From Enterobacteria phage T6, in sequence record MH550421: DNA of 64,000 bases; one strand, given 5' to 3'. The translations under genes and the position numbers were made by a program. Of the stretch, positions 11,558 to 61,985 are shown piece after piece; positions within the stretch are counted from its first letter, which is position 1; the number at the start of each line of letters is the position of its first letter. The notes under the pieces were generated by a model that ran no database searches, was not told the DNA's origin, and was given only the letters and a program-made list of their open reading frames with translations.

Positions 11558-12160
11558 TTATAGATTAAATCCTTCAAAATCAAGAGTATAGATAGTGTAT
11601 GTTGAATACTTTTTGTACTCATATCTATCTGCAATTCTAAATACACTTCCAGCTGGTATCATTACTTCTTGTTCATCTGAAACTAATTCCATATTACGAT
11701 AACGATGACTATCCGGAAACTTAAAGTTTGGATTGTATTCTTTACACCGTAGAGCTTTTATAGCATACTCCTGGAAATTGAATACCATAGGAGCTTTGAA
11801 TTCAAAAATAACTTGTGTGTTATACTCTAAACCAGAAGCAAAATGTAGAGCTATATTTTTATCATATGAAGCTGATACGACTTTATCAAATGTAATAATA
11901 TCAATTCCTTGATTTAATACTTGTTTAGTCTCAGCTGGAACACCTCTCCAAAGAGGTTTATCGTTTGGTTCCAAACGAGATTTGATTATTTCATTTAACC
12001 AAGTATGGTCATCTGGTTTGTTGGTAATACAATGAATTAAAAGTTCAATTTCAGATAAATTAAACCCTTCAGAAAGTAATTCTTCACGAATAGAAGCACG
12101 CACCGATGCATCCATTGATTTTATTTTAAAATCTTTTAGTTGCATTACTGAGTATTTCAT
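11558..12160 (-). CDS. modA: ADP-ribosyltransferase ModA
   Basis: 200 aa; tandem with paralogous 207-aa ORF; size and order as T4 modA/modB. Confidence 0.7.
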   Translation of the reverse strand: MKYSVMQLKDFKIKSMDASVRASIREELLSEGFNLSEIELLIHCITNKPDDHTWLNEIIKSRLEPNDKPLWRGVPAETKQVLNQGIDIITFDKVVSASYDKNIALHFASGLEYNTQVIFEFKAPMVFNFQEYAIKALRCKEYNPNFKFPDSHRYRNMELVSDEQEVMIPAGSVFRIADRYEYKKYSTYTIYTLDFEGFNL

Positions 12161-12780
12161 TCAACTACCTCAATATCATATACTTTAAATGTTCCAAATG
12201 AATCGTGTAATTTTTCTTTTGAAATAGAAGTTATTCTATACTTTCCAATTGGAATCATCCATTCTTGTTCACGCACGATCATCATTAAGTTATCAGTACG
12301 CTCTGAATCTAGCCCATCAGTATCTTCATACGTGTACTTAAACTCAGTATTAGGAGAAGAAAGTATAATATCGCTGATATGGTCAGAATAATTAAAAGCT
12401 TTATCAGTTTTTAAGCGAAATATTATTTCAGTGAAATACTCAACATAAGAAAAACCACATGCTGTGTGCAAACTAGTAGTAAATGAATCTACCCTGTTCG
12501 TTGAAAACACTTCTCCAACTTGTAAATCTTTAATGAGTTCTTTTGTCGATTTTGATATACCACGATATAACTGATAAGGTGATTTAGTTAAATGCTTTTT
12601 AATGATTTTATTCAACTGCCTATGAAGAGCTTCATTCTTTTTGGCTTCCATACATTGCCAAAGAACGGATTGTTCAAAGTCAGTAAATTTTTCACAGACT
12701 TTTTTATACATATCATATTGAAAATCGACGCTTTCAGCTTTTATAGATAACTGTTCAACATCTTCAAGATTAATAATCAT
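12157..12780 (-). CDS. modB: ADP-ribosyltransferase ModB
   Basis: 207 aa paralog immediately upstream of modA. Confidence 0.7.
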   Translation of the reverse strand: MIINLEDVEQLSIKAESVDFQYDMYKKVCEKFTDFEQSVLWQCMEAKKNEALHRQLNKIIKKHLTKSPYQLYRGISKSTKELIKDLQVGEVFSTNRVDSFTTSLHTACGFSYVEYFTEIIFRLKTDKAFNYSDHISDIILSSPNTEFKYTYEDTDGLDSERTDNLMMIVREQEWMIPIGKYRITSISKEKLHDSFGTFKVYDIEVVE

Positions 12781-17623: not shown

Positions 17624-18250
17624 TTAACCTCTATTCATAAAAGCATTAAAAATTTGGTCATCAATAGAAACATTTACTTTAGACTGTTTTTCAGATGGCA
17701 ATTCATATCCACATATTACAATTTTATGATCAATATCAAAATACACAGAAGCAATATGATTAATGATATTTTCAGTGAAGTCTAAATCAACATCAATGTC
17801 TTTTTGACCAAAGCCCAAAGGATAAATAATGCGAGTAATTCGATTATCTTTAACAAAGATTCCACCGACATACTCTGTGCTGCGTTTAAAGTCTACACGC
17901 CGACGAAATAAAAAATATTCAGGCTCTTTATGAGCTCGGCTCATAGGGCACAACGAATAACTAGAATAAGAGATGTCAAATCCTACGCCTTCAATATGAA
18001 CTAAATTGCCATGATTAAACCAATTATAATCATATGCCAAGTCCATTAGATTGTCATATGTGAAAGGCACCGGATTAACATCATTGGTCACAAGCATATA
18101 ATTGGCAACTGCTATAATTTCATTATTTTTAACGAATACAAACCGTGATTGATGCGAATGACCTGGACCTGTGTTTTCACGATTAATGATATAACACTGG
18201 GCACCTTTATATTTGTATGTGTCTTTACACTTGTGCATTTGATAAAGCAT
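17624..18250 (-). CDS. hypothetical protein, 208 aa (T4 61.2-like)
   Basis: size and position match T4 61.2. Confidence 0.5.
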   Translation of the reverse strand: MLYQMHKCKDTYKYKGAQCYIINRENTGPGHSHQSRFVFVKNNEIIAVANYMLVTNDVNPVPFTYDNLMDLAYDYNWFNHGNLVHIEGVGFDISYSSYSLCPMSRAHKEPEYFLFRRRVDFKRSTEYVGGIFVKDNRITRIIYPLGFGQKDIDVDLDFTENIINHIASVYFDIDHKIVICGYELPSEKQSKVNVSIDDQIFNAFMNRG

Positions 18251-18543
18251 TATTCACCTACCACTTCAGCGATGATATTTTTATTATTAAAGTTTTTATC
18301 GCAATACAGAACATAATTATACTGCATTACACCGCCAGACTTAAGTTGTTTTTGCACTTCAGCTTTCATTTCAGGACGATCGCGCTCAACGATATTCATA
18401 ATATCTGCTTCAATTTGGGTTTCAACCTCAGTCTGATCCGCAGTCATAGACCATTCGCACAAATCTTTATCATAGCCTGCCATGGCAGGTTGAGCAGCGC
18501 AAGAAGCTAAAGCAAAAATTGTGGCAAAGATAAATTTTTTCAT
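18250..18543 (-). CDS. sp: Spackle periplasmic protein (superinfection exclusion)
   Basis: 97 aa with cleavable signal peptide; position 61.3. Confidence 0.75.
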   Translation of the reverse strand: MKKFIFATIFALASCAAQPAMAGYDKDLCEWSMTADQTEVETQIEADIMNIVERDRPEMKAEVQKQLKSGGVMQYNYVLYCDKNFNNKNIIAEVVGE

Positions 18544-18571
18544 GATAATCTCCTCAGTAGTTTATGTTTAT

Positions 18572-18601
18572 ATAGTATCTCAATTTCCAACAAAAGTAAA
18601 C
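18572..18601 (-). promoter_or_regulatory. sigma70-type early promoter
   Basis: rc GTTTAC (18596-18601), 18-nt spacer, TACTAT (18572-18577). Confidence 0.6.
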
Positions 18602-18603
18602 AG

Positions 18604-18903
18604 CTATTTTAAAACTTTTGCATAATCACATGTTACAAACTGTTTCTCTAGATTGACGATTTTACGAAAGTATCTTTTGCATTGGCGAATCTGCCGCTTC
18701 GTAGGGCGAACAGCAAACTTAATAAATTCCACTCGACCAAATGGAGGACTTTCTTCTGCTGGAATATCTAACACCAATTCCCACGTATCTGCAATAAGTG
18801 CTTTGAATTGCGTATTTTTCCTGACGTTATACGGAGTAGGTTTAAATAAAACAATATGCATATTATCCTCGGCAATCCACTTCACACACTTTCTTGTCAT
18901 CAA
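18604..18903 (-). CDS. hypothetical protein, 99 aa (61.4 position)
   Basis: ORF. Confidence 0.45.
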   Translation of the reverse strand: MMTRKCVKWIAEDNMHIVLFKPTPYNVRKNTQFKALIADTWELVLDIPAEESPPFGRVEFIKFAVRPTKRQIRQCKRYFRKIVNLEKQFVTCDYAKVLK

Positions 18904-19045
18904 TGAAAGCTTTAACTAATGCTTTATTAACTTCAGCATATTGAGTAGTAGCCCATTGAACGTCATCTTTCATCATTGTGATTTCTTTAGTAAACATGCT
19001 TTCATTCTTAAACCACCCCATAAAAACTACCTTTACCAATTCCAT
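18863..19045 (-). CDS. dmd: Dmd antitoxin (inhibitor of RnlA/LsoA toxins)
   Basis: 60 aa MELVKVVFMGWFKNES..., recognised as T4 Dmd. Confidence 0.85.
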   Translation of the reverse strand: MELVKVVFMGWFKNESMFTKEITMMKDDVQWATTQYAEVNKALVKAFIDDKKVCEVDCRG

Positions 19046-58376: not shown

Positions 58377-58558
58377 AAGGAATTTATATAATCAATGAGT
58401 TCTTGTTCTTTATTATCGAATTCTTTAGAAAGTTCTTCGTACTCGTTTGCACTAAAAGGACCGCATTCATTACAAACTTTTTCCAATTCACTATTTTTAT
58501 CCATAACTTCGTGGATAAGAGAAAAGAGTTTGTCTTTTTGTTCTTTGCTTAGGCTCAT
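58373..58558 (-). CDS. small acidic protein, 61 aa (small paralog family)
   Basis: MSLSKEQKDKLFSLIHEV... Confidence 0.45.
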   Translation of the reverse strand: MSLSKEQKDKLFSLIHEVMDKNSELEKVCNECGPFSANEYEELSKEFDNKEQELIDYINSL

Positions 58559-58728
58559 ATATTAATTTCCAAAAGTTTTAAAATAATTCGCTTTTGCTTA
58601 AATATTTCCACAGTTAAATGATCAGTATCTTTTTGACCAATTCCAATGGCAAAACCTTTATTAACAGCGAGTTCAATTAAATTATCAAGTTCACGTAACA
58701 CTTCATATTGTAACTCAGAACTATTCAT
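58555..58728 (-). CDS. small protein, 57 aa
   Basis: ATG at 58728; stop overlaps next start (ATATGA); below track cutoff. Confidence 0.3.
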   Translation of the reverse strand: MNSSELQYEVLRELDNLIELAVNKGFAIGIGQKDTDHLTVEIFKQKRIILKLLEINI

Positions 58729-58952
58729 TTCGGTTTACCTTCTTTAACGAAATCTGGATAAGGATAAAATCCCGAATAAAATCCTTCACCTTTATGATTG
58801 ATACATCCTTTATTAGAACAATAGCACCAATAATCGAAATCACAAGCCATTTCATCGTTGCATAAAGCAAAAACAACCGGCCATTTACACTTTTCACAAT
58901 GGGCATTTTTAAGAATACTAGTTTGGCTCATAACCATGTAACCTTTAAGCAA
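58725..58952 (-). CDS. Cys-rich small protein, 75 aa (possible zinc binding)
   Basis: multiple Cys/His: CEKCKW...CNDEMACDFDYWCYCSNKGCINH. Confidence 0.45.
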   Translation of the reverse strand: MLKGYMVMSQTSILKNAHCEKCKWPVVFALCNDEMACDFDYWCYCSNKGCINHKGEGFYSGFYPYPDFVKEGKPK

Positions 58953-59155
58953 TATTCTTCTACATGCTGTTTACGACCTTTCTTATCAATAAAGGTATAT
59001 TCAACGAATGTTCCAATGTAGTCTTTATCTACATCATGTGGACTATTAATTGGACATTTAGTACGGCAAATGCGTTCCCATTGACGAATAATTACTGCCT
59101 TATTCTTTGGGTCATATGGATGTGGATAATGTATATTCATAATAATGGTTCCCAA
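58928..59155 (-). CDS. hypothetical protein, 75 aa
   Basis: small ORF. Confidence 0.4.
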   Translation of the reverse strand: MGTIIMNIHYPHPYDPKNKAVIIRQWERICRTKCPINSPHDVDKDYIGTFVEYTFIDKKGRKQHVEEYCLKVTWL

Positions 59156-59604
59156 TCAACAATCACAATTTCTAATTTAGAGGAATATGTATCTAAAATC
59201 CCCTCAATAATATCCCAGTTCCCTTTACCTATGCCTGCACCAATCCTAGGCATATAGATTGTAGGTTTAATCAGTTTATTTTCACCAAACTCATTTAATT
59301 CTAACATACAATTCATTAAAGCGGAATACTCAAAATTTGGCCCTGGTTGAAATTGAGTATAAAGATTAAAGCAGTAAGCTTTATGAGTCCTAAAGTATTT
59401 TTCATAGACTGAATAAGAACCAAGTTTAGTTACATCACCCCATTCAGTCTGTAATTTATCAGCTTCCAAAATTTTAGGGAAAGCTTTGGTTAATTGACCT
59501 GCGACTCCAGCTTTCATCGTGTGAAAACAATTACATCCATGCGCAATATTTTTACCTTCAGCGAAAAGGGCGACAATATCGCCCTTGATATATTTTACAA
59601 TCAT
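59137..59604 (-). CDS. macrodomain protein, TARG1/DarG-like (candidate ADP-ribose hydrolase)
   Basis: 155 aa; KGDIVALFAEGKNIAHGCNCFHTMKAGVAGQL and RIGAGIGKG motifs resemble the OARD1/TARG1 macro fold. Confidence 0.55.
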   Translation of the reverse strand: MIVKYIKGDIVALFAEGKNIAHGCNCFHTMKAGVAGQLTKAFPKILEADKLQTEWGDVTKLGSYSVYEKYFRTHKAYCFNLYTQFQPGPNFEYSALMNCMLELNEFGENKLIKPTIYMPRIGAGIGKGNWDIIEGILDTYSSKLEIVIVDWEPLL

Positions 59605-59948
59605 CTAGTACTCAATCCTCGATTATAAGAATCTACCAAACGGTCAACCATTGAATGACAAGCGGCTTTATCTTTCTCCTCCGCAACTGAGCATTCTAAG
59701 GTATTCCACTTTTTAGCATATCGTTTTAACAATGTATCGTTTTTGTATCTGCTTGATTTATCTCTTTCTCCGTCTTTATATGCATATATTAATTTCTGTG
59801 CAAATTCAGCTTGGCATGCTTTATTTTTCCCACAATAATCTGCCGCAGTGCGGTTTACATATTCTCTAATTTCAGTATATGATGTATCTGCTGACGCAGA
59901 AGCAGAAAATGAAATTAATCCTATACATAAAACCAAAATTTTAGTCAT
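59601..59948 (-). CDS. secreted protein, 115 aa
   Basis: cleavable signal peptide MTKILVLCIGLISFSASASA; four Cys. Confidence 0.5.
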   Translation of the reverse strand: MTKILVLCIGLISFSASASADTSYTEIREYVNRTAADYCGKNKACQAEFAQKLIYAYKDGERDKSSRYKNDTLLKRYAKKWNTLECSVAEEKDKAACHSMVDRLVDSYNRGLSTR

Positions 59949-60486
59949 TTACTATTTCCAAAAGTTTATTATTTTTAAGGTAATTAGCCTTTTCTAGGAC
60001 TTCAGAAGCATATTTAGAACCAGCTTTAACATTCCATCCCGAATTATAAGAGGATATTGCTTTTCTTATATCGCCCTTATGTATATTTAACCAATAAGAA
60101 AGTTCAATGTACGCCCAGGAAGCTGAATTGGATCGTTTATTCAACATTCTTTTTATTTCAGCATCGGTCATATTATAACCAAGTTCCTTAACTCTCGCTC
60201 GCATAGTAGGCAAATAATTTTGGAACATTCCGTAGGCGTGATGCTTTGGTTTAGATTTTAAATTAACTCCGCCAGAGCTTTCTTGCCATATAATGGCTGC
60301 CATTATATGGCCTAATCCGCTCTTGTGGATGTTTTTGTGTGTTTTATATTTTCCATCCTTAGAAAATTGTTCCCCGAATTGATACGCGTAACGCATGTTA
60401 TCGAGTTGGACATTACTGAAAGTATGCTCGGAGCTATGTGCCATCATTGAAATGGCCAATAGACCAGCGAGTAGTGCTTTTCTCAT
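59941..60486 (-). CDS. secreted lytic transglycosylase-like protein (SLT domain)
   Basis: signal peptide; SLT motifs WQESSGG (catalytic Glu), YGMFQ, YNSG. Confidence 0.55.
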   Translation of the reverse strand: MRKALLAGLLAISMMAHSSEHTFSNVQLDNMRYAYQFGEQFSKDGKYKTHKNIHKSGLGHIMAAIIWQESSGGVNLKSKPKHHAYGMFQNYLPTMRARVKELGYNMTDAEIKRMLNKRSNSASWAYIELSYWLNIHKGDIRKAISSYNSGWNVKAGSKYASEVLEKANYLKNNKLLEIVND

Positions 60487-60493
60487 GCTTACC

Positions 60494-60955
60494 TCATTGA
60501 GTTTTAATTACTGCTTTAGAAGCCTTTCCTGGTAAACGACGACTGTTGATAATTGCCATCCTACATTGAAGTGACGGGTCTTTGAACTTCTCATTAGGTT
60601 TACAAACTGTAAATCCAAGCCAAAGATTTCCATCTGTGATTTCTAAACGTCCAGGACGATATTCAACCCCATCAATAAAATCCTCGTCAATGTCAGGACG
60701 CGGTGGCATACTCAGGAATTCATTAACTTCTAAAACATGGTCTTTTATTTTATGGAATAATTCAAAAACGTATGTCTCATCAATCTCCCGTTGAATTGCA
60801 CGATCAAGAAGATGCTGAGAATATTTTAGATGAAACGATGAGACTCCTGCTGCTTTTGATGCCTCACGAATCTCATTGTTAATTTGACGAAACTCCGACT
60901 CAAAGTGGCGACGAAGCTTATTTCGACGGATAAAAACTTCTGTATTGATAGTCAT
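60494..60955 (-). CDS. regB: RegB site-specific endoribonuclease
   Basis: 153 aa MTINTEVFIRRNKLRRHFE..., recognised as T4 RegB. Confidence 0.85.
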   Translation of the reverse strand: MTINTEVFIRRNKLRRHFESEFRQINNEIREASKAAGVSSFHLKYSQHLLDRAIQREIDETYVFELFHKIKDHVLEVNEFLSMPPRPDIDEDFIDGVEYRPGRLEITDGNLWLGFTVCKPNEKFKDPSLQCRMAIINSRRLPGKASKAVIKTQ

Positions 60956-60982
60956 GTTGTTCTCCTCTTAACTGATAGAAAA

Positions 60983-61012
60983 ATTATACCACAGTCAAGA
61001 GGAAAAGTAAAC
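60983..61012 (-). promoter_or_regulatory. sigma70-type early promoter
   Basis: rc GTTTAC (61007-61012), 18-nt spacer, TGGTATAAT. Confidence 0.7.
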
Positions 61013-61016
61013 AACT

Positions 61017-61985
<969 letters not shown>

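What the first reader, a model, noticed from the sequence alone, without database searches (positions are those of the whole stretch)
59137..59604. TARG1/DarG-like macrodomain protein in a phage that encodes ModA/ModB ADP-ribosyltransferases
The 155-aa ORF has the macrodomain ADP-ribose-binding signature in its TARG1/OARD1-like form (KGD..., HGCNC, RIGAGIGKG). TARG1-type macrodomains, including the DarG antitoxin, remove ADP-ribose from protein or DNA. A phage copy could reverse host ADP-ribosylation defences such as DarT-type DNA ADP-ribosylation, or tune the phage's own ModA/ModB modifications. From memory (uncertain), the anti-DarT factor AdfA was mapped to T4-like gene 61.2, whose homolog is at 17624-18250; the window may therefore hold two independent anti-ADP-ribosylation functions.
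Basis: partly seen in the sequence, partly recalled or inferred. Interest (0 to 1): 0.6.

Follow-up and report, generated by a model that had tools for sequence, protein, structure and literature searches.

The report
Phage T6 anti-DarT2 macrodomain (tk.4/AdfM)

Summary

A 2025 preprint (HIDEN-SEQ) found T4 tk.4 to be the single gene needed on DarTG2 hosts and named it adfM. The 61.2 ORF at 17624-18250 is AdfA (Pfam PF23813, 447 bits) and carries the DarT1-neutralising His allele.

One refinement. Tk.4 is not a DarG or TARG1 in active-site terms. The catalytic Lys (TARG1 K84, DarG K80) is an invariant Gln84, and TARG1 Asp125 is Gly126. DarG models score it at only 25-30 bits, against 133-138 for PhiKZ "AdfM". 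Gln at this position matches SCO6735, a proven Lys-independent ADP-ribosyl-thymidine hydrolase, but Tk.4 lacks that subclass's long mobile loop and has its own invariant Asp49. The family is widespread and free-standing in phages and bacteria, with no DarT neighbour found.

Enzymatic activity of the Tk.4 type has not been shown. A role in tuning ModA/ModB has no support.

The parts
59137..59604 (-). tk.4 / adfM coding sequence, a 155-aa single-domain macrodomain protein. Its ATG overlaps the stop codon of vs (ATGA), and its stop overlaps the start of tk.3.
   Evidence: ORF, sequence. T6 record CDS YP_010067267.1. 153/155 identical to T4 Tk.4. Pfam Macro. AF2 pLDDT 96. Fold matches.
59500..59541 (-). 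Codons for residues 22-35 (HGCNCFHTMKAGVA), loop 1 of the ADP-ribose pocket. N25 is invariant and aligns with DarG N22 and PhiKZ AdfM N23. K31 and A32 are the only two differences from T4 (G31, S32).
   Evidence: Family conservation. Residue mapping. DarG N22A and PhiKZ N23A reduce activity (PMC5179494; PMC13309987). T6/T4 comparison. The K31 allele is cluster P0001 with 122 members.
59458..59460 (-). Codon for Asp49. It is invariant in the Tk.4 family (75/75 phage-type and 80/80 bacterial relatives), but the aligned residue is Tyr in DarG2, PhiKZ gp104, BT1257 and SCO6735. Its role is unknown.
59353..59355 (-). Codon CAA for Gln84. It is invariant in the family and sits at the position of the catalytic Lys of TARG1 (K84), DarG (Taq K80, E. 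coli K76) and PhiKZ AdfM (K78), and of the essential Gln85 of SCO6735.
   Evidence: hhalign of A1 against A2, probability 99.6%, E 8e-24. HMM alignments to BT1257 and TARG1. Combined MAFFT. SCO6735 sequence and numbering. Literature.
59215..59250 (-). Codons for residues 119-130 (PRIGAGIGKGNW), the diphosphate-binding loop 2. Gly126 sits where TARG1 has Asp125.
17624..18250 (-). Gene 61.2 / adfA (208 aa), the second and mechanistically unrelated anti-DarT factor in the window. It is a DarT1-binding inhibitor, and His165 aligns with RB69 AdfA residue 164 (the neutralising R164H allele).
   Evidence: ORF. 98.1% identical to T4 61.2 and 67% to RB69 gp61.2. Pfam PF23813 AdfA at 447.5 bits. Literature.
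11558..12780 (-). Context only: two adjacent ADP-ribosyltransferase ORFs of 200 and 207 aa (ModA/ModB type).
   Evidence: ORFs. The T6 record annotates both as 'RNA polymerase ADP-ribosylase'. PHROG 832 at E 8e-34 and 6e-42. No Pfam hit.

Best explanation
The ORF is T6 tk.4, the orthologue of T4 adfM. It is a free-standing ALC1/TARG1-class macrodomain made from the vs.1-vs-tk.4-tk operon. Its most likely job is to erase the ADP-ribose that the host toxin DarT2 puts on thymidine N3 in single-stranded phage DNA, so that replication can proceed in DarTG2-carrying E. coli. The chemistry is probably not the Lys-dependent one of DarG and TARG1. The catalytic position holds an invariant Gln84, as in SCO6735, where Gln85 is essential and a water-mediated, Lys-independent hydrolysis of ADP-ribosyl-thymidine has been proposed. 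What is shown: ORF identity, macrodomain fold, residue mapping, family conservation, and a DarTG2-specific requirement for the T4 orthologue (published genetics). What is inferred: that the T6 copy behaves like the T4 copy (two substitutions, both in loop 1), that protection works by hydrolysing ADP-ribosyl-DNA, and that Gln84 is the key residue.
Against: No biochemical assay of any Tk.4-type protein was found; the preprint itself says enzymatic removal 'seems likely'. The source is a preprint, and its phenotype was measured at 30 C in minimal medium. T6 itself has not been tested as a tk.4 deletion. T6 carries Lys31 at a loop-1 position that is Gly in T4 and in every reference enzyme, although this allele is common in nature. 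Tk.4 lacks the extended mobile loop, with Lys89 and Lys93, that the SCO6735 authors link to high DNA activity. The curated DarG models score it far below family level.
Confidence: 0.75

Rival explanations
1. Tk.4 protects mainly by binding and blocking DarT2, acting as a stoichiometric inhibitor, and hydrolysis of modified DNA is secondary.
For: Catalytically dead SCO6735 Q85A still inhibits DarT in vitro, more strongly than DarG K80A or TARG1 K84A (PMC9411070). AdfA, the other T-even factor, works by binding DarT1. The catalytic Lys is absent from Tk.4.
Against: Active-site residues (N25, Q84, and the Gly residues of loops 1 and 2) are invariant across phage and bacterial members that have no DarT partner, which fits a conserved enzyme better than a toxin-specific binder. 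Tk.4 lacks the C-terminal DarT-binding domain of DarG, being 155 aa against 323, and the Taq DarG macrodomain alone (K80A) did not inhibit DarT.
Confidence: 0.1
2. Tk.4 is a small-molecule enzyme, either a Poa1p-like ADP-ribose-1''-phosphate phosphatase or an O-acetyl-ADP-ribose deacetylase as the database labels say, and the DarTG2 phenotype is indirect.
Against: The T4 gene is dispensable on K-12 and becomes required specifically with DarTG2. The annotation is only a domain-name transfer dating from 2006. From established knowledge, T4 RNA repair (Pnkp/Rnl1) does not generate 2'-phosphate junctions, so no Appr>p source is evident. Poa1p has Ser where the family has an invariant Gln.
Confidence: 0.05
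3. Tk.4 erases protein or RNA ADP-ribosylation, for example by trimming the phage's own Alt/ModA/ModB marks or reversing other host ADP-ribosyltransferase defences. DarT2 would then be one of several targets.
For: ADP-ribosyltransferase ORFs of the ModA/ModB type are present in the same genome. SCO6735 and TARG1 also remove Glu/Asp-linked protein ADP-ribose, and ALC1-class enzymes reverse phosphate-linked nucleic-acid ADP-ribosylation (PMC8883491). The family is widespread and free-standing in bacteria without DarT neighbours, which hints at a broader substrate.
Against: From established knowledge, Alt, ModA and ModB modify arginine, a linkage handled by ARH1-type enzymes and not by ALC1-class macrodomains (one search lists the specificities). 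No phenotype of tk.4 was reported without DarTG2. There is no direct evidence either way.
Confidence: 0.07

Closest known systems
T4 Tk.4 = AdfM (anti-DarT factor Macrodomain), HIDEN-SEQ preprint 10.1101/2025.11.20.689424
   Same: It is the orthologue: 153/155 identical, same length, same position between vs and tk.3. All family-invariant residues are shared.
   Different: T6 has K31/A32 where T4 has G31/S32, in pocket loop 1. The DarTG2 phenotype was measured only for T4.
Streptomyces coelicolor SCO6735 (PDB 5E3B) and Bacteroides BT1257 (2FG1/2AFC), Gln-type ALC1-like macrodomains
   Different: Identity is only 20-28%. Tk.4 lacks the 5-6-residue longer mobile loop carrying Lys89 and Lys93 that defines that subclass. 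It has Asp49 where they have Tyr, and Ala/Ser32 where they have the loop-1 Lys (K34).
DarG2 antitoxin macrodomain (E. coli WP_016239483, Taq 5M3E, Mtb 5M3I)
   Different: The invariant NFPTK Lys is replaced by NLYTQ Gln. Tk.4 has no C-terminal DarT-binding domain and no adjacent darT. It scores 25 bits on NCBIfam DarG (cutoff 250) and 30 bits on PADLOC DarG.
PhiKZ gp104 'AdfM' (Cell Rep 2026, PMC13309987)
   Same: It is a phage-encoded macrodomain that counters DarTG2, and it carries the same name.
   Different: It belongs to a different subfamily. gp104 is 38-39% identical to E. coli DarG2, keeps the catalytic Lys (FPTKDNW) and scores 133-138 bits on the DarG models. T6 Tk.4 against gp104 gives no significant BLASTP match (E 0.018). 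gp104 has direct in vitro activity data; Tk.4 does not.
Human TARG1/OARD1 (4J5S)
   Same: Top Foldseek hit (6e-10). The spacing between the catalytic position and the following conserved Tyr is identical. It removes dT-ADPr.
   Different: The catalytic dyad K84/D125 is Q84/G126 in Tk.4.
Yeast Poa1p (6LFQ-6LFU), ADP-ribose-1''-phosphate phosphatase
   Different: Poa1p has Ser at the Gln84 position and acts on a small-molecule substrate. No genetic evidence points to that role in T4.

Membership tests
Macrodomain (Pfam PF01661) | Profile score at or above Pfam's gathering threshold | tested here: met
   25.0 bits against a cutoff of 22, E 1.9e-5, residues 22-132.
Macrodomain (Pfam PF01661) | Three-layer alpha/beta/alpha macro fold | tested here: met
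Macrodomain (Pfam PF01661) | ADP-ribose binding or hydrolysis | not testable with these tools
   Needs purified protein. Gly-rich loops 1 and 2 are conserved.
ALC1-like (TARG1/DarG/SCO6735) macrodomain class | Closest structural and sequence neighbours fall in this class and not in the MacroD, PARG or viral classes | tested here: met
DarG antitoxin (NCBIfam NF048014 / PADLOC DarG) | Score at family level on the curated model | tested here: not met
   25.1 bits (cutoff 250) and 29.7 bits. The controls score higher: E. coli DarG2 230 and 268, PhiKZ gp104 138 and 133.
DarG antitoxin (NCBIfam NF048014 / PADLOC DarG) | Catalytic Lys in the NFPTK motif (Taq K80) | tested here: not met
   Invariant Gln84 aligns with invariant DarG2 K76.
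DarG antitoxin (NCBIfam NF048014 / PADLOC DarG) | C-terminal DarT-binding domain and an adjacent darT gene | tested here: not met
   Tk.4 is a 155-aa single domain inside the phage vs-tk operon. E. coli DarG2 is 323 aa and lies next to DarT.
TARG1/OARD1 | Lys84/Asp125 catalytic dyad | tested here: not met
   Q84 and G126 occupy the aligned columns. The reference sequence was verified against PDB 2LGR.
SCO6735/BT1257 subclass of ALC1-like macrodomains | Gln at the catalytic-Lys position | tested here: met
   Tk.4 Q84 = BT1257 Gln = SCO6735 Q85. It is invariant in 155 family sequences.
SCO6735/BT1257 subclass of ALC1-like macrodomains | Mobile loop about five residues longer than in TARG1/DarG | tested here: not met
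   T6 has 8 residues between Q84 and Y93, the same as TARG1 and DarG2. BT1257 and SCO6735 have 5-6 more. Bacterial relatives of Tk.4 mostly have 3 more.
SCO6735/BT1257 subclass of ALC1-like macrodomains | Hydrolysis of DarT-made ADP-ribosyl-thymidine | not testable with these tools
   Shown for SCO6735. No assay was found for Tk.4.
AdfM in the T4 sense (tk.4) | Orthology to T4 tk.4 by sequence and synteny | tested here: met
   153/155 identical. The vs-tk.4-tk.3 order is the same.
AdfM in the T4 sense (tk.4) | Required for growth on DarTG2 hosts | not testable with these tools
   Shown for T4 only. Needs a T6 tk.4 deletion.
AdfA (Pfam PF23813), for the 61.2 ORF | Profile score above cutoff, and His at the RB69 R164 position | tested here: met
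   447.5 bits against a cutoff of 27. T6 H165 aligns with RB69 R164. The significance of the allele comes from PMC11257639.

The most novel reading that the evidence does not exclude
T4/T6 Tk.4 may stand for a distinct third flavour of ALC1-class macrodomain. It combines an invariant Gln84 and an invariant Asp49 with a short mobile loop, and it is free-standing in thousands of phages and hundreds of bacterial genomes. Under this reading it removes ADP-ribose from DNA by a chemistry unlike both DarG (Lys) and SCO6735 (Gln plus long Lys-rich loop). It would then be a general ADP-ribose eraser (DNA, and perhaps RNA or protein) that phages share with bacteria, and not a captured DarG antitoxin. 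The two proteins now both called 'AdfM' (T4 Tk.4 and PhiKZ gp104) would be independent solutions to the same defence.
Probability: 0.35. Interest if true: 0.5.

Novelty: already known. Interest (0 to 1): 0.3.

Why it matters
DarTG systems stop phages by ADP-ribosylating their DNA. T-even phages turn out to carry a layered set of counter-measures: AdfA and AdfN against DarT1, and Tk.4/AdfM against DarT2. This window holds two of the three. For annotation, T6 tk.4 and its many relatives should be labelled as an anti-DarT2 macrodomain and not as 'phosphatase'. For mechanism, the useful point is that the T-even enzyme lacks the catalytic Lys of DarG and TARG1. It therefore offers a simple, abundant model, alongside SCO6735, for Lys-independent hydrolysis of ADP-ribosyl-thymidine. 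The name AdfM also currently covers two different subfamilies.

Tried and rejected
(1) A five-sequence MAFFT alignment placed BT1257 Lys/Asp opposite Tk.4 T83/Q84. Profile-based alignments showed this was a misalignment caused by BT1257's longer loop, and the BT1257 Gln aligns with Q84.

(2) I considered that K127 (in GIGKGNW) or K31 might stand in for the missing catalytic Lys. Neither is conserved: Gly is the family consensus at both positions.

(3) The word-index protein search suggested a purely phage-borne family. Three 'bacterial MAG' hits were in fact T4-like phage contigs. The genome scan corrected this impression with more than 500 bacterial loci, some on megabase-scale chromosomal contigs.

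(4) I looked for a DarT partner next to the bacterial relatives. tblastn and phmmer with E. coli DarT2 found nothing, while the positive control was found, and no neighbour family recurs in more than 10 of 80 loci. Sensitivity for very divergent DarTs is limited.

(5) The sigma-70 promoter scan around the operon gave no enrichment (15 sites against 17.1 expected), so no promoter is claimed.

(6) The primary AdfA paper (LeRoux 2022) is not in the held library. The 61.2 = AdfA mapping was taken from two other papers and from Pfam.

(7) Pfam finds nothing for the two ORFs of the ModA/ModB type. They are identified by PHROG 832 and the record annotation only.

(8) I could not obtain model coordinates, so the spatial position of Asp49 relative to the pocket was not determined.

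Full report
**What is there.** The window matches Enterobacteria phage T6 (NC_054907 / AP018814) at 100% identity over the kilobase tested around the finding. It lies in the T-even order regB, vs.1, vs, tk.4, tk.3 ... tk. Its ATG overlaps the stop codon of vs, and its stop overlaps the next start, so it belongs to a tightly packed operon. The T6 record calls it 'phosphatase'. Sister phages call it tk.4, 'macro domain protein' or 'Poa1p_like'. The macro/A1pp nature of tk.4 was noted as early as 2006 (PMC1524935).

**Is it a macrodomain?** Yes.
- Pfam Macro scores above its gathering threshold.
- PHROG 335 matches at 1e-64.
- An AlphaFold2 model built on a 75-sequence alignment has pLDDT 96 and pTM 0.91.
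- Foldseek against the PDB puts TARG1, Poa1p, BT1257 and DarG on top, at E 6e-10 to 3e-7.

**What is already known about its function.**
- T6 Tk.4 is 153/155 identical to T4 Tk.4.
- A November 2025 preprint (HIDEN-SEQ, 10.1101/2025.11.20.689424) infected DarTG2-expressing E. coli with a T4 transposon library. tk.4 was the single significant hit. A clean knockout became DarTG2-sensitive, and the gene was named adfM. The authors state that enzymatic removal of ADP-ribose from DNA 'seems likely', so the mechanism is inferred and not shown.
- This fills a gap left by Johannesman et al. (PMC11257639). They showed that AdfN (gp30.3, NADAR) counters DarTG1 only. T4 lacking both AdfA and AdfN is still DarTG2-resistant, and they noted that the T-even phages must have another strategy.
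- A separate 2026 paper (PMC13309987) used the same name, AdfM, for PhiKZ gp104. It showed in vitro removal of DarT2-made ADP-ribose from DNA.

**The second gene.**
- The ORF at 17624-18250 (-) follows the primase gene 61 and a small ORF.
- It is 98.1% identical to T4 61.2 and 67% identical to RB69 gp61.2.
- It matches Pfam PF23813 'Anti-DarT factor A' at 447 bits.
- Two papers state that AdfA is encoded by T4 gene 61.2.
- T6 has His165 opposite RB69 Arg164, which is the naturally DarT1-neutralising allele.
- AdfA acts by binding DarT1, and its deletion from T4 has no phenotype.

The window does therefore hold two independent anti-DarT functions. They are aimed at different DarT types and work by different means. 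ORFs of the ModA/ModB type are also present at 11558-12780.

Tk.4 does not carry the TARG1/DarG catalytic signature. I retrieved the E. coli DarTG2 locus using a cloning primer printed in PMC11257639, built a 39-member DarG2 macrodomain alignment, and compared it with the Tk.4 family profile.
- hhalign gives 99.6% probability (E 8e-24) and aligns Tk.4 N80-L-Y-T-Q84 with DarG2 N72-F-P-T-K76.
- HMM alignments to TARG1 and a combined MAFFT of both families plus references agree: Tk.4 Q84 = TARG1 K84 = DarG2 K76 = PhiKZ gp104 K78, and TARG1 D125 = Tk.4 G126. The TARG1 reference sequence was verified against PDB 2LGR.
- That Lys is the main catalytic residue. Taq DarG K80A is inactive and fails to rescue DarT toxicity (PMC5179494), and TARG1 shares 'the same catalytic lysine' (PMC8883491).
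- Gln84 is invariant in all 75 family members sampled down to 35% identity, and in all 80 bacterial relatives.
- On the curated DarG models Tk.4 scores 25 and 30 bits. PhiKZ gp104 scores 138 and 133, and genuine DarG2 scores 230 and 268.
- Tk.4 against PhiKZ gp104 gives no significant BLASTP match, whereas gp104 is 38% identical to E. coli DarG2.

The two 'AdfM' proteins are therefore different subfamilies. PhiKZ's looks like a DarG-type macrodomain, and the T-even one does not.

**Why a Gln-type enzyme is still the best explanation.** Streptomyces SCO6735 (PDB 5E3B) is an ALC1-like macrodomain with Gln85 at exactly this position.
- It removes DarT-made ADP-ribosyl-thymidine faster than DarG or TARG1.
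- It rescues E. coli from DarT.
- It is dead as Q85A or Q85E.
- Even when inactive, it inhibits DarT by binding (PMC9411070).

Tk.4 nevertheless fails one defining feature of that subclass, the mobile loop five residues longer and carrying Lys89 and Lys93. T6 has the short TARG1/DarG-length loop. It also has an invariant Asp49 where DarG2, gp104, BT1257 and SCO6735 all have Tyr. It works like SCO6735 at the key position but is not a member of that subclass.

**Distribution and origin.**
- tblastn finds relatives in 2733 phage records, across T4-like, Felix-O1-like, Klebsiella, Vibrio, Acinetobacter and Pseudomonas phages.
- A scan of one genome per bacterial species found more than 500 loci, including megabase-scale chromosomal contigs of cultured Pelagimonas and Calothrix.
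- All 80 loci examined keep N25, D49, Y82 and Q84.
- Their neighbours are varied housekeeping genes, no family recurs in more than 10 of 80 loci, and no DarT2 homologue is nearby.

The family is thus free-standing, like SCO6735. Nothing here supports the view that the phage gene is an orphaned DarG.

**A T6-specific caveat.** The only differences from the tested T4 protein are G31K and S32A, both in pocket loop 1. Position 31 is Gly in T4 and in every reference enzyme. The Lys allele is nevertheless common: it is the representative of a 122-member cluster, and the surrounding 81 bases are matched at 98.8-100% in phages such as AR1 and wV7. It is probably functional, but the T6 allele has not been tested.

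**Rivals.**
- A binding-only inhibitor of DarT2 is possible and could coexist with hydrolysis. However, invariant pocket residues in partner-less bacterial copies argue for catalysis.
- The 'phosphatase' reading is a domain-name transfer and does not explain a DarTG2-specific requirement.
- Tuning ModA/ModB marks is unsupported. From established knowledge those enzymes modify arginine, which this macrodomain class is not known to cleave.

**Verdict.** The function is already described for the T4 orthologue, so novelty is low. What remains open is the enzymology: a Lys-less, short-loop, Asp49-bearing macrodomain acting on DarT2 damage, with no in vitro data yet.

Noticed in passing
window 59941-60486 (-): The full vs.1 ORF is intact in the window (181 aa, the same length as T4 vs.1 at 546 nt). 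The T6 RefSeq record annotates only its last 231 nt (record 59935-60165), leaving about 320 bp apparently unannotated.
   Followed up: partly
window 58555-58728 (-) and 58725-58931 (-): T6 has two extra small ORFs between tk.3 and tk.2 that T4 lacks at this spot. One is Cys-rich (CEKCKW...C...C.C..KGC). RefSeq labels them 'rI antiholin' and 'tail assembly protein', which look like mis-transferred names.
   Followed up: no
window 60494-61511 (-): In T6 regB directly abuts e (lysozyme). In T4 the gene upstream of regB is vs.3. T6 therefore appears to lack the vs.3-and-onward block at this position, a T-even plasticity region.
   Followed up: no
window 17624-19045 (-): The 61.2/adfA gene sits in the 'anti-toxin-antitoxin island' described for T4: adfA, sp (18250-18543), a 61.4-position ORF (18604-18903; tifA in T4 from my own recollection, labelled 'DNA primase/helicase' in the T6 record) and dmd (18863-19045).
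   Followed up: partly
whole window against NC_054907: The coordinate offset between window and record is +3 at 17.6 kb but +6 at 59 kb. The window therefore differs from that record by a small indel somewhere in between, or comes from another T6 assembly.
   Followed up: no
L005 41-3739 and L007 69-3159 (T4-like phage contigs binned into bacterial MAGs): In distant T4-like phages the Tk.4 homologue sits in a different neighbourhood: DUF4326, an Rnl1-type RNA ligase, an unknown ORF, the macrodomain, then a Dda-type helicase. These contigs are labelled as Bacilli or Cetobacterium MAGs but are clearly phage.
   Followed up: partly
literature: The name AdfM is in use for two non-orthologous proteins, T4 Tk.4 (Gln-type) and PhiKZ gp104 (DarG-like, Lys-type). 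The two papers do not cite each other in the text searched.
   Followed up: yes
window 59566-59586 (+): A terminator-like hairpin followed by a T-run lies on the strand opposite the 5' end of tk.4. Five such sites were found in the region against 2.1 expected, so it may well be chance.
   Followed up: no
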